DNA from: a virus
Taxonomy: Duplodnaviria > Caudoviricetes
Length of the DNA stretch: 64,000 nucleotides
Strand: one strand, 5' to 3'
Virus record (IMG/VR): IMGVR_UViG_3300031951_000008
Notes under the pieces: model-generated
The model's input: only the letters and a program-made list of their open reading frames with translations
Databases searched by the model: none
Told to the model about the DNA's origin: nothing
Program-made: the position numbers and the translations under genes
Part shown: in pieces, positions 43,255 to 47,439 of the stretch
How the letters are laid out: the number at the start of each line of letters is the position of its first letter
Position numbering within the stretch: position 1 is the first letter of the stretch

Positions 43255-43342
43255 AGGAATACTGTGTAGATACAAGGCTGAGTCAGTTCAACGGTTCGAA
43301 GACCTGACAAGACGGCCATCAGCAAAATCGCGGTATTCAGTA

Positions 43343-43413
43343 AGGGTCGTAGCTCAGACGGCAGAGCGGAGAATATATTTCTCAGGACGATGGTTCGACT
43401 CCATCCGATCTTT
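43343..43413 (+). pseudogene. tRNA-like element with a 5-nt anticodon loop
   Basis: Acceptor AGGGTCG/CGATCTT, D arm GCTC-AGACGGCA-GAGC, anticodon stem GAGAA/TTCTC with loop TATAT, T arm GATGG-TTCGACT-CCATC. Confidence 0.75.
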
Positions 43414-43419
43414 GTAATA

Positions 43420-43504
43420 GGGGCTGTGGCGGAACAGGCATACGCAACAGACTTAAAATTTGTCGGGAGTTAATCCCATGTGGGTTCGAATCCCATCAGC
43501 CCCA
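43420..43504 (+). tRNA. tRNA-Leu(UAA)
   Basis: Acceptor GGGGCTG/CAGCCCC, discriminator A, anticodon arm ACAGA-CTTAAAA-TTTGT, long variable arm GGGA/TCCC, T arm GTGGG-TTCGAAT-CCCAT; CCA not encoded. Confidence 0.93.
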
Positions 43505-45741: not shown

Positions 45742-45749
45742 GAAGCATC

Positions 45750-45803
45750 TGTGGCAGGTTTGGGTTTAACAGCGAATTCGCGTCTTACCCAACACCTGCC
45801 ACA
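45750..45803. repeat. Long imperfect inverted repeat filling a divergent intergenic region
   Basis: TGTGGCAGGT-TTGGGT / ACCCAA-C-ACCTGCCACA (16 bp, one bulge) with the inner palindrome GCGAATTCGC. Confidence 0.85.
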
Positions 45804-45815
45804 AAAAGATACAGT

Positions 45816-46073
45816 ATGGGAAAGTTCAAGCCAAATCAGATAACTGCTATATTTGTTATGCTGTGTAGCTTCCTATACGTAGCATACGACTTTATCGCAT
45901 TTAGCTTATGGGGTGGTGAGGCGACTATCAGTTATGTATTTAATAGCTACGCATGGAGTCATCCTGTGGGGCTATTTTTAACAGCTTTTGTTTGTGGTGG
46001 TTTGACCGTCCACTTTTTAAGGTGGGCTCCTTTAGAGAGACAAGTTAATGATAATAGGGACGAAAAACAATAG
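45816..46073 (+). CDS. Small two-TM membrane protein (holin-like)
   Basis: Two hydrophobic segments and a charged C-terminal tail. Confidence 0.5.
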   Translation: MGKFKPNQITAIFVMLCSFLYVAYDFIAFSLWGGEATISYVFNSYAWSHPVGLFLTAFVCGGLTVHFLRWAPLERQVNDNRDEKQ

Positions 46074-46503
46074 TCTAGTCGCAGTAGAAGCTATAAAGCA
46101 ATGTGGAGATGGTTTAGACACGCTACTAAAGCGATTTGCTGATAAGTCTACGATTAATGCCCATTTAATCACACATGAAGTGCACTTTCTGACGGATAGT
46201 GTAGCGAAGAGCAAGTCACACTTGTTTCTCGCTTCTCCAGGTGCGGTAGTGTTGGTGCATGCTGTGGTTGGCATAAATGCTGCGGCTATAAATTTAAACC
46301 CAAACCAAGAGATCTTTATAGACCATTTAGGCAAGAAGGTATATGAGCGACTATCTGCTACTAAATTAAATTACACGAGCCAAGGTGGCCAGAAGGCTAA
46401 TCGAGGAGTTAGAGTAAGGATTAATAACAAGCTGATATATTTTCTTCGTGAATTGCCTGGTCAATATGAGGCATTCGCTGATGTTTTTGCAGTACTAGTA
46501 TAA
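46048..46503 (+). CDS. Hypothetical protein
   Basis: 151-aa ORF overlapping the previous stop. Confidence 0.5.
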   Translation: MIIGTKNNSLVAVEAIKQCGDGLDTLLKRFADKSTINAHLITHEVHFLTDSVAKSKSHLFLASPGAVVLVHAVVGINAAAINLNPNQEIFIDHLGKKVYERLSATKLNYTSQGGQKANRGVRVRINNKLIYFLRELPGQYEAFADVFAVLV

Positions 46504-46504
46504 T

Positions 46505-46533
46505 AAAAAGTTGCCCTCATTTCTGAGGGCAAC
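46505..46533 (-). terminator. Intrinsic terminator (minus strand; possibly bidirectional)
   Basis: GTTGCCCTCA-GAAA-TGAGGGCAAC followed by TTTTT on the minus strand. Confidence 0.8.
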
Positions 46534-46575
46534 AGCGCACATATAGCGGGATTCACGCTAATCCCATTTATTAAG

Positions 46576-46800
46576 CGTCTTGTCCTGGATGACTCAAGTG
46601 ACTCTCCGGTACTTGGAATGATATTTATTTGACTAAGATGCCAGCTTGCTTGTTGTTACAAGTGATGCTCTTTTTTAGAGCTTTCAAGGTTTGACCATCT
46701 TTTTAAGGAGAGAGCCAAGCAACACTAGCCAATCTCCATATCATTACCGACAGCGAATCAGCCAGCCTATACTACCGACCGATCTAGCTTCGACAACACA
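46576..46800 (-). ncRNA. Candidate rod-like structured non-coding RNA
   Basis: No credible ORF in 46534-46866; nested long-range helices that need G-U pairs on the minus strand; ends just before a minus-strand terminator. Confidence 0.5.
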
Positions 46801-46866
46801 TCATAAGCGAGGGGCATTTGTCTATTCAATTGATTTGTGCAGAGGTATAGCAGGATCATTAAGGCC

Positions 46867-47439
46867 TTACCATGCTTCTTTTTTGCCGCCGTCATAAGGT
46901 TTAGCAAGCTTGTTATTAATTAATAATTGGCCTAAATTATAGCCATCAACTATAACATCTGCATCTAGTCTGAAGTATTTGTCACGTTTGATGTTCTTTA
47001 GTTCTATAACACTACTACTGGCGAGTGTTTGAGTCACAAATCGTTTAGCATTTTCAGCTAACTTTTTGATGCCAGGGTCTTTAGAATCGATTTCAGGTGT
47101 GTCTACCCCATTGATTCTTATCGGCATAGCTGTGCCTATAACGGGTGGCCAGTCTTTAATGTCAACGGTAAGAGTGTCACCATCGTATACTCGTACGACT
47201 CTTTGTATTATTACTTTGTATTGTTGAGTAGGTTTTTTGGCGGCTTGAGGTACTATCTCAATCTTTGATGGTTTGCCGATGTTTTTATTAAGTACTAGAT
47301 ATAATAGATAAAATACGAAGACGATAATAAATAGGGTGAAAAACGATTTAGGCATCTTAAAGAACGTAGGGATAATAGGTCGCCTTTTATCACTGCCTGT
47401 ATTGTGTCTTCTGTTCAAAATTCTTCTTATCAGCCGCAT
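46867..47439 (-). CDS. Membrane-anchored thermonuclease (SNase-like)
   Basis: TM segment FFTLFIIVFVFYLLYLVL; RVYDGDTL, IRINGVDTPE, DKYFRL, YDGGKK. Confidence 0.85.
   Translation of the reverse strand: MRLIRRILNRRHNTGSDKRRPIIPTFFKMPKSFFTLFIIVFVFYLLYLVLNKNIGKPSKIEIVPQAAKKPTQQYKVIIQRVVRVYDGDTLTVDIKDWPPVIGTAMPIRINGVDTPEIDSKDPGIKKLAENAKRFVTQTLASSSVIELKNIKRDKYFRLDADVIVDGYNLGQLLINNKLAKPYDGGKKEAW

What the first reader, a model, noticed from the sequence alone, without database searches (positions are those of the whole stretch)
46576..46800. ORF-free ~180-225 nt rod-like RNA, possibly a 6S-type RNA polymerase decoy
Seen: in a genome with almost no intergenic DNA, 46534-46866 has no credible ORF. 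On the minus strand nested helices form (plus-strand coordinates): 46755-65/46585-95 (CTGGCTGATTC/GAGTCATCCAG), 46745-50/46606-11, 46738-44/46618-24, 46725-32/46629-36, 46716-22/46646-52, and an outer 46792-800/46576-84. Five positions are G-U pairs on the minus strand but A-C mismatches on the plus strand, which fixes the strand. The enclosed loop holds GCTCT/AGAGC and TCAA/TTGA hairpins. A further hairpin (GGGATT/AATCCC) and a U-tailed terminator follow. The core rod is 181 nt, the size of 6S RNA. The strings CCTTAAAA, ACCTTGAA and GGCATCT appear in the order I recall from enterobacterial 6S RNA (unverified), but the topology is not canonical 6S. Inference: a phage structured ncRNA that could titrate host sigma70 holoenzyme in favour of the phage sigma, or a new RNA class.
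Basis: partly seen in the sequence, partly recalled or inferred. Interest (0 to 1): 0.78.

Follow-up and report, generated by a model that had tools for sequence, protein, structure and literature searches.

The report
Expressed orphan structured RNA, giant phage
The gene-free gap in this uncultured freshwater giant phage makes a real, abundant, well-conserved folded RNA of about 240-290 bases, but it is not a recognisable 6S RNA, occurs only in this phage and one close strain, and its job is unknown.

Summary
The observation mostly holds. Region 46504-46866 lies between convergent genes and has no credible ORF. All six helices exist as written, and their five G-U pairs become A-C mismatches on the plus strand. 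Only three of the six helices survive thermodynamic folding of the full-length RNA, which gives a four-way junction rather than one rod.

New evidence:
- Two freshwater metatranscriptomes from different studies each hold one stand-alone contig that lies only on this gap (46537-46771 and 46537-46699) and nothing on the flanking genes.
- In the only variant strain, 46504-46800 differs at 4 of 297 positions. Third codon positions of the two flanking genes differ at 8% and 15%.
- Homology between the strains stops at about 46801, where the outer stem begins.
- The variant's changes fall in loops or turn a G-U pair into G-C.

Minus-strand folding beats shuffles (z -2.25; plus strand -0.40), and a canonical minus-strand terminator follows.

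The RNA sits in a lineage-specific cassette that is absent from six related phage lineages. No homologue was found anywhere, so covariation cannot be tested.

6S membership fails: there is no Rfam hit, the RNA is too long, and alignment to E. coli ssrS is no better than shuffles, although the three recalled strings are truly there in order.

Verdict: a real orphan phage ncRNA of unknown function. Earlier notes of this scan proposed 6S-like rod RNAs in other phages; none resembles this sequence.

The parts
46537..46800 (-). Body of the ncRNA (264 nt if the 5' end is at about 46800). The part seen as RNA is 46537-46771.
   Evidence: RNA contigs X19 (46537-46771) and X20 (46537-46699) lie wholly on it. 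The block is conserved up to about 46800. Fold z is -2.25.
46792..46799 (-). 5' strand of the outer closing stem. It pairs with 46577-46584.
   Evidence: Pair probabilities are about 0.95. Homology with strain L005 stops 1-3 nt upstream of it.
46577..46584 (-). 3' strand of the outer closing stem.
46756..46784 (-). 5' hairpin of 11 bp with 5 G-U pairs and a 7-nt loop. It forms on the minus strand only.
   Evidence: p 0.86. The L005 change at 46760 turns a G-U pair into G-C.
46615..46748 (-). Long imperfect arm (two 8-bp helices and smaller ones) ending in a weakly structured, A-rich apical domain of about 77 nt.
   Evidence: Helices 46745-38/46624-17 (p 0.88-1) and 46732-25/46636-29 (p 0.3-0.87); apical helices p 0.07-0.24.
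46667..46681 (-). GCUCU-A6-AGAGC hairpin in the apical domain.
   Evidence: p 0.95. The L005 one-base deletion falls in its loop.
46587..46607 (-). Small third arm of the junction.
   Evidence: p 0.98.
46547..46566 (-). Hairpin in the 3' tail (GGGAUU/AAUCCC).
46505..46533 (-). Intrinsic terminator: 10-bp stem with 6 G-C pairs, then a run of five U (UUUUUAUUAU). It serves the RNA and the PhoH-SNase operon. It is not covered by the RNA contigs.
   Evidence: Identical in L005. The RNA contigs stop at 46537.
46801..46866 (-). Variable spacer between the SNase stop codon and the RNA. It holds a weak sigma-70-like site (TTGAAT-18-TATGAT, 46829-46800).
   Evidence: In the variant strain 46801-46860 is replaced by 26 unrelated bases. 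The promoter-like site matches 9 of 12 and is no more than chance. It is not kept in L005.
46048..46503 (+). 151-aa protein of unknown function, convergent with the RNA. It belongs to the same lineage-specific cassette.
   Evidence: 17 nucleotide differences to L005, 12 at codon position 3. No Pfam or PHROG match. Distant homologues in other phages have no RNA beside them.
45816..46073 (+). 85-aa hydrophobic protein. It replaces the unrelated 86/87-aa gene of related phages.
   Evidence: 17-22% identity to the relatives' protein. No homologue beyond its own cluster.

Best explanation
The gap holds a functional gene for a stable, structured non-coding RNA.

Inferred transcription: the RNA is read from the minus strand, either from a start just upstream of 46800 or as the tail of the PhoH-SNase transcript. 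It runs into the intrinsic terminator at 46533-46505. It accumulates as a molecule of about 235-265 nt whose detectable part is 46771->46537.

Predicted fold of the full-length form: an outer stem closes a four-way junction with three arms. These are a G-U-rich 5' hairpin, a long imperfect arm with an open, A-rich tip, and a small hairpin. A tail hairpin follows.

Shown: the RNA is far more abundant than the neighbouring mRNAs, and almost every base is conserved between the two known strains.

Inferred function: it acts in trans as a folded RNA, most likely by binding and holding a protein, not as a short-seed antisense RNA. The partner is unknown. It belongs to a lineage-specific accessory cassette, so a host-takeover or anti-defence role is the most plausible setting.

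It is not a member of the 6S family or of any other catalogued RNA family.
For: Expression: RNA run X19 holds 0.61 of the sampled words of the 363-nt gap but only 0.13 of the 1501-nt stretch. X20 holds 0.42 and 0.09. So all their words lie in the gap. Laid on the window, each run gives one contig, 46537-46771 and 46537-46699, with no mismatches, no loose ends and nothing on the flanking genes. The two runs are from two studies.

Selection: 46504-46800 has 3 substitutions and 1 single-base deletion in 297 nt against strain L005/L006. Third codon positions differ at 12 of 152 in the 151-aa ORF and at 28 of 191 in SNase (Fisher p 8e-4 and 7e-9). Homology ends at about 46801, where the outer stem starts.

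Structure:
- Minus strand z -2.25, plus strand z -0.40.
- The window and L005 give the same full-length architecture, at -76.4 and -76.1 kcal/mol.
- The four differences fall in an internal loop, a bulge and a hairpin loop, or change G-U to G-C.

Strand:
- A canonical terminator with a U-tract exists on the minus strand only.

Non-coding.

Accessory cassette: five related lineages (L002, L004, L124, L128, L130) have SNase abutting an unrelated 86/87-aa gene, with no gap. An IMG/VR relative holds no copy.
Against: - The strand is not shown directly. The contigs carry no strand information.
- Both RNA contigs stop at 46537, 3 nt short of the terminator stem. That could equally be a plus-strand 5' end.
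- The RNA contig stops at 46771, inside the loop of the 5' hairpin. The outer stem and the 5' arm of the hairpin may therefore be absent from the mature RNA.
- No promoter is conserved between the two strains.
- There is only one variant strain with four differences, so there is no covariation test.
- The fold z-score is modest, and it is lost (-1.29) for the truncated form.
- RNA depth is low (3-5x), and the evidence is contigs, not reads.
- Protein binding is an inference from size, abundance and full-length conservation. Nothing identifies a partner.
Confidence: 0.5

Rival explanations
1. One reading: a 6S-type decoy. A rod-like RNA mimics an open promoter and titrates host sigma-70 holoenzyme, favouring the phage's own sigma factor.
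For: With the 5' end at 46775 or 46771, near where RNA contig X19 ends (46771), the MFE in this strain is one long rod. CCTTAAAA, ACCTTGAA and GGCATCT occur in the same order in E. coli ssrS; 64 of 3000 shuffles reach such a chain. The RNA is abundant and stable.
Against: No 6S hit, or any Rfam hit, even at E up to 10. Local alignment to ssrS equals the shuffle mean. The RNA is at least 235 nt. The rod is 15.7 kcal/mol worse than the MFE of the full-length RNA. It is not the MFE in strain L005, where the 46760 change puts a C-A mismatch next to an existing C-U mismatch. There is no mid-rod central bubble. The truncated form folds no better than shuffles (z -1.29).
Confidence: 0.08
2. The RNA is on the plus strand. 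It would be a processed tail of the 85-aa/151-aa mRNA with its 5' end at 46537. It could pair through GCUUGUUGUUA (46648-46658) with UAAUAACAAGC, which is present in both flanking mRNAs.
For: Both RNA contigs share a sharp end at 46537 while the other ends differ. In random-primed libraries sharp ends are more often 5' ends (general knowledge). No plus-strand terminator follows the 151-aa ORF apart from a weak hairpin. The 14-nt string ATTAATAACAAGCT lies in both convergent genes (46420-33 and, on the other strand, 46907-20) and is 10 of 11 complementary to 46648-58.
Against: The plus-strand fold is no better than shuffles (z -0.40 and -1.06). Ten G-U pairs become mismatches on the plus strand. 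There is no promoter-like site before 46537 and no terminator near 46775-46800. Complementarity of 11 nt is common in this region.
Confidence: 0.17
3. A base-pairing small RNA derived from the 3' untranslated region of the PhoH-SNase transcript. It would be chaperone-dependent and regulate phage or host mRNAs through a short seed.
For: It lies between the SNase stop codon and the only minus-strand terminator. It carries an AAC-AAC-AAG stretch plus a terminator U-tract, features of Hfq-type sRNAs (general knowledge; sequence). No conserved promoter of its own was found.
Against: At 235 nt or more, with many helices, it is much larger than typical seed-type sRNAs. The whole 297 nt is conserved, not just a seed. 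The RNA contigs do not include the terminator U-tract. No complementarity beyond chance (12 nt) was found to the rest of the window. The host is unknown.
Confidence: 0.12
4. There is no function of its own. The signal would be a nuclease-resistant remnant of the long 3' untranslated region, and the region would be a recombination scar in a variable site.
For: The cassette is lineage-specific and mosaic. No homologue was found anywhere. The fold z-score is modest.
Against: The sequence is six to eleven times better conserved than neighbouring synonymous sites. Conservation ends exactly at a predicted helix. The adjacent 60-nt spacer was freely replaced.
Confidence: 0.1

Closest known systems
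6S RNA (SsrS; Rfam RF00013)
   Same: An abundant, stable, largely double-stranded RNA. The termini can pair in the truncated form. Three short strings are shared with E. coli ssrS in the same order.
   Different: No covariance-model match. No alignment above shuffles. It is 50-100 nt longer. The predicted four-way junction or branched rod has no central bubble. It is phage-encoded in a strain-level accessory cassette. RNA polymerase binding is untested.
Intergenic non-coding RNAs of jumbo phage PhiKZ found by Grad-seq (PMC8545117)
   Same: Non-coding transcripts from intergenic gaps of a giant phage, recognised because they behave differently from phage mRNAs. Their function is unknown.
   Different: The PhiKZ example quoted in that paper is about 100 nt. 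There is no sequence relation: the phage collection gave no match to this gap.
Phage T4 stable RNAs C and D (species 1 and 2) (general knowledge; named in scan note e1-5390565)
   Same: Stable, structured, non-tRNA RNAs of a T4-type phage with unknown function.
   Different: The T4 RNAs lie in the tRNA cluster and are processed with the tRNAs.
Orphan rod-like RNAs of other uncultured jumbo phages noted by this scan (e1-5374283, e1-5374280, e1-5401275)
   Same: RNAs of 185-320 nt in gaps of giant phage genomes, with no Rfam family, compared with 6S by their readers.
   Different: Those are reported as conserved in a dozen or more relatives, with compensatory changes in at least one of them. This one has no relatives beyond one strain and shares no sequence with any noted stretch. 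Those reports were not checked here.

Membership tests
6S RNA (RF00013 and related Rfam 6S models) | Match to the family covariance model | tested here: not met
   No match at gathering scores over the whole window. No 6S match at E up to 10 on 46400-46950, both strands.
6S RNA (RF00013 and related Rfam 6S models) | Length of about 150-200 nt | tested here: not met
   The RNA contig alone spans 235 nt. The conserved block suggests 264 nt before the terminator.
6S RNA (RF00013 and related Rfam 6S models) | A single rod with a large central bubble between a closing stem and a terminal stem | tested here: not met
   The full-length MFE and centroid give a four-way junction. The rod is the MFE only for a truncated RNA of one strain, and even there it carries a 3'-side branch instead of a central bubble. 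These are predictions only.
6S RNA (RF00013 and related Rfam 6S models) | Sequence similarity to a reference 6S (E. coli ssrS, L007:1984-2166) | tested here: not met
   Three 7-8-mers are shared in order, reached by 64 of 3000 shuffles. The Smith-Waterman score is 16, against a shuffle mean of 16.2.
6S RNA (RF00013 and related Rfam 6S models) | Binds sigma-70 holoenzyme and templates product RNAs | not testable with these tools
   Needs pull-down, gradient or small-RNA data from infected cells.
tRNA / tmRNA and tRNA-like phage RNAs | Cloverleaf or T-arm recognised by ARAGORN or Rfam; for this genome's tRNA-like set, the shared GGATCGG end stem | tested here: not met
   ARAGORN finds only the two tRNAs at 43342-43504. 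There is no Rfam tRNA or tmRNA hit in the gap. GGATCGG is absent from the gap.
Terminator-ended stand-alone bacterial or phage small RNA gene | No ORF, a discrete transcript and an intrinsic terminator | tested here: met
   no conserved ORF; discrete RNA contigs; terminator. A promoter of its own is not established.
Any Rfam 15 family | Covariance-model match | tested here: not met
   Only three snoRNA chance hits at E 8-9.

The most novel reading that the evidence does not exclude
The RNA is the founding member of a new kind of phage protein-trapping RNA. It would be made as a four-way-junction precursor, cut in the loop of its G-U-rich 5' hairpin, and refolded into a rod with paired ends that sequesters a host factor during takeover. 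That factor could be RNA polymerase holoenzyme or a defence or RNA-decay protein. The evidence does not exclude this. The RNA-seq ends (46771 and 46537) coincide with a terminal stem in the rod form, while conservation extends through the precursor-only part.
Probability: 0.1. Interest if true: 0.75.

Novelty: new member of a known kind. Interest (0 to 1): 0.4.

Why it matters
Giant phages carry many unexplained non-coding RNAs, and few have direct evidence of expression. This is an uncultured phage's orphan RNA with three independent lines of support: stand-alone transcripts in environmental RNA, strong purifying selection between strains, and a strand-specific fold. It also sits in a swappable accessory cassette, where host-takeover and anti-defence functions usually reside. 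If it traps a host protein, it would add an RNA-based weapon to the phage repertoire. As it stands it is one more well-documented orphan RNA, confined to one phage species, and the attractive 6S label does not hold.

Tried and rejected
Searches for homologues, all negative:
- blastn (word 11) of the gap against 50,697 phage records found no match.
- The scan's own index found no look-alike.
- nhmmer against the loci of related phages found nothing.
- A BLAST scan of the 136-kb IMG/VR relative found nothing.
- No paralogue was found in the window.

Neighbour-based routes:
- SNase relatives at 40-49% identity were fetched. None has the gap.
- The 151-aa protein has only a 97% twin in the word-indexed search. 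The exhaustive search adds two distant phage homologues, and no RNA lies beside them.
- The 85-aa protein has no relatives.
- AlphaFold of the 151-aa protein was unusable (pLDDT 35). The Atlas gave nothing usable.

Unavailable data:
- No whole genome is held for this window.
- The 324-kb JGI record could not be scanned with the 6S model.

Ideas rejected:
- A CsrB-like decoy. I counted four GGA in 264 nt by eye from the sequence, which is the chance expectation.
- A mobile element with terminal repeats. No terminal inverted repeats lie at the cassette borders.
- A small peptide gene.
- A late-promoter-driven RNA. No YAAATATA lies upstream of the RNA.

Failed run: my first shuffle script timed out. 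The tool's own shuffles were used instead.

Full report
**Setting**

The window is part of an uncultured freshwater giant phage. The protein of the neighbouring nuclease gene is recorded on a contig of 320,971 bp. No whole genome is held for the window. The gap has no match in the phage records, and its two neighbour proteins have no close relative there or in IMG/VR.

The finding lies between two convergent genes. One is a 151-aa ORF ending at 46503 on the plus strand. The other is a staphylococcal-nuclease-type gene (46867-47439, minus strand), which follows a PhoH gene.

By a crude gene call the window is about 96% coding. This 363-nt gap is its largest stretch without a gene or a tRNA.

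Each of two helices has one mismatch. Five of their pairs are G-U on the minus strand and A-C on the plus strand.
- No ORF in the gap is credible.
  - The longest, a 68-aa plus-strand frame with a TTG start, takes all three inter-strain substitutions as amino-acid changes. It loses its C-terminal half in the variant strain.
  - A 13-codon AUG frame on the minus strand acquires a stop at codon 3 there.
- Folding 46537-46800 gives -76.4 kcal/mol on the minus strand. Shuffles average -65.2 (z -2.25; 5 of 200 fold as well). The plus strand has z -0.40.

The topology is not the one proposed. In the ensemble of the 264-nt RNA, three of the six helices are strongly populated:
- 46738-44/46618-24;
- 46725-32/46629-36;
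- the outer stem 46792-800/46576-84.

The other three have probabilities below 0.1.

The predicted full-length architecture has these parts:
- an outer stem closing a four-way junction;
- an 11-bp 5' hairpin with five G-U pairs (46784-46756);
- a long imperfect arm (46748-46615), whose 77-nt tip is weakly structured apart from the GCUCU hairpin;
- a small hairpin (46607-46587);
- a tail hairpin (46566-46547);
- a canonical minus-strand terminator (46533-46510 plus a U-tract).

**Expression**

Among public runs, two freshwater metatranscriptomes from different studies hold part of the region.

| Run | Share of sampled words, 1501-nt query | Share of sampled words, 363-nt gap |
|---|---|---|
| X19 | 0.13 | 0.61 |
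| X20 | 0.09 | 0.42 |

So essentially all their words lie in the gap. Laid on 46200-47200, each run contributes exactly one contig: 46537-46771 (235 nt) and 46537-46699 (163 nt). Both are identical to the window, have no loose ends, and leave the two flanking genes uncovered.

DNA contamination would not single out the gap twice. The region therefore yields a discrete RNA that is much more abundant than the neighbouring mRNAs.

Limits of this evidence:
- These are contigs at 3-5x depth.
- They carry no strand information.
- Both stop at 46537, 3 nt before the terminator stem. This may be a true processed end. It may also be an effect of the stable hairpin on cDNA synthesis. I cannot tell which.

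**Selection**

Only one variant strain was found. It appears as L005 (a JGI contig of 323,894 bp), as L006 (ENA) and as the contig of DNA run X14.

| Region | Differences to the variant strain |
|---|---|
| 46504-46800 | 3 substitutions + 1 single-base deletion in 297 nt |
| 151-aa ORF | 17 in 456 nt, 12 at third codon positions |
| Nuclease gene | 46 in 573 nt, 28 at third codon positions |

Against third positions the gap is significantly better conserved (Fisher p 8e-4 and 7e-9).

The 60 nt between the RNA and the nuclease stop codon are replaced by 26 unrelated bases in the variant. Homology resumes within 1-3 nt of the first base of the outer stem.

The four differences fall as follows:
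- 46736 lies in an internal loop.
- 46797 lies in a bulge.
- The deletion at 46671 lies in a hairpin loop.
- 46760 turns a G-U pair of the 5' hairpin into G-C.

Both strains give the same full-length fold at nearly the same energy. This is consistent with the junction model. Four changes are too few for a covariation test.

**Which strand, and which ends?**

For the minus strand:
- the asymmetry in fold z-scores;
- ten G-U pairs that are mismatches on the other strand;
- the only canonical terminator;
- the fact that the minus strand must be transcribed here anyway, as the tail of the PhoH-SNase operon.

For the plus strand:
- the shared sharp end at 46537, which in random-primed libraries is more typical of a 5' end;
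- the lack of a good plus-strand terminator after the 151-aa ORF.

I put the minus strand at about 70-75%.

The 5' end is open. Conservation runs to 46800, but the RNA contig stops at 46771, in the loop of the 5' hairpin. If the mature RNA starts at 46775 or 46771, its 5' end pairs with the 3' end at 46537. That form folds no better than shuffles (z -1.29).

A precursor that refolds after a cut in the hairpin loop would reconcile both views. That is speculation.

No promoter is established:
- The sigma-70-like site at 46829-46800 matches 9 of 12 positions. The count of such sites in the region scanned is no more than chance. The site is not kept in the variant.
- The YAAATATA motif, noted by earlier readers, is enriched in intergenic DNA of this window (7 of 19 copies). 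It is absent upstream of the RNA.

**Where it comes from**

Five related phage lineages have PhoH-SNase followed at once by an 86/87-aa gene on the other strand, then the spore-photoproduct-lyase-like gene. Their nuclease is 40-49% identical to the one here. None has a gap.

In this phage the 85-aa gene at that place is an unrelated hydrophobic protein (17-22% identity). The 151-aa ORF and the RNA are extra. So 45742-46866 is a lineage-specific replacement at a variable site.

The 151-aa protein is a real gene. It has distant homologues (about 30% identity over most of its length) among small early-type genes of other uncultured phages, and those have no RNA beside them. The RNA is therefore not tied to it.

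No homologue of the RNA was found in any of these places:
- the phage records;
- the scan's index;
- the pattern scans of viral, metagenome and genome collections;
- the relatives' loci;
- the 136-kb IMG/VR relative;
- the window itself.

The exact-pattern scans are a weak way to find diverged RNAs, so absence is not proven.

**The 6S question**

E. coli ssrS, taken from the annotated K-12 record, contains CCTTAAAA, ACCTTGAA and GGCATCT in that order. A collinear chain of that size is reached by 64 of 3000 dinucleotide shuffles.

Everything else fails:
- Rfam gives no 6S or other hit, even with relaxed thresholds.
- Local alignment to ssrS scores exactly like shuffles.
- The RNA is at least 235 nt.
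- No predicted form has a mid-rod central bubble.

Membership is rejected. Whether the RNA works like 6S, as a decoy for RNA polymerase, is untested. I give it under 10%.

**Mechanism**

Shown:
- a discrete, abundant RNA;
- purifying selection over nearly the full length;
- a minus-strand-specific fold shared by both strains;
- residence in an accessory cassette.

Inferred:
- minus-strand transcription ending at the terminator;
- action in trans as a folded RNA that binds a protein, not as a short-seed antisense RNA.

The inference rests on three points. The RNA is large. The whole sequence is constrained, not just a seed. It far out-accumulates its neighbours. The partner is unknown.

The rivals are given with odds in the report sections: a plus-strand RNA, a 3'-UTR-derived base-pairing sRNA, and an inert remnant.

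**Verdict**

This is a genuine, expressed orphan ncRNA of a giant phage. It is another instance of a known kind of thing (phage stable RNAs of unknown function, as in PhiKZ; PMC8545117). It is not a 6S RNA, and for lack of relatives it does not yet define a class.

Noticed in passing
window 46420-46433 and 46907-46920: A perfect 14-nt inverted repeat (ATTAATAACAAGCT) lies in the 3' parts of both convergent genes, in the same codon phase, so both encode INNKL. It brackets the RNA gene and is kept (15 nt) in strain L005. No dinucleotide shuffle of 500 gave 14 nt or more. The INNK residues in the nuclease are specific to this lineage (relatives have KQG or DKG). A third, 10-of-11 copy lies inside the RNA at 46648-46658. 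Possible readings: a template-switch conversion, a long-range RNA stem, or a shared binding site. None was tested.
   Followed up: partly
window 45757-45769 and 46294-46306: A second perfect inverted repeat of 13 nt joins the leader of the 85-aa gene to the middle of the 151-aa ORF. The whole 64-kb window has only five such repeats of 13 nt or more within 1.5 kb, and two of them are in this 1.2-kb cassette.
   Followed up: partly
window 45742-46866 compared with L002, L004, L124, L128, L130: The site between the spore-photoproduct-lyase-like gene and the nuclease gene is a variable slot. Relatives carry a conserved soluble 86/87-aa protein there. This phage carries an unrelated hydrophobic 85-aa protein, a 151-aa protein and the RNA.
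   Followed up: yes
window 46048-46503; L252:4001-4453, L254:4001-4441: The 151-aa protein has no Pfam or PHROG family. It does have distant relatives (30-41% identity) in other uncultured phages, there next to ResIII/SWI2-SNF2 helicase or WGR-domain genes among small early-type genes.
   Followed up: partly
window 6551, 8549, 24690, 30483, 30509, 31161, 41873: YAAATATA is strongly enriched in intergenic DNA: 7 of 19 copies lie in about 4% of the sequence. This fits a T4-like late promoter, as earlier readers proposed.
   Followed up: partly
window 43342-43414: ARAGORN calls a tRNA-Tyr with the unusual anticodon AUA, 6 nt upstream of tRNA-Leu(UAA).
   Followed up: no
window 46556-46775 in run X12: A run labelled as probable DNA holds a separate low-depth contig that nearly coincides with the RNA body, next to a deeper contig on the nuclease gene. 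This may be chance at 2.5x depth, or the run may contain RNA.
   Followed up: no
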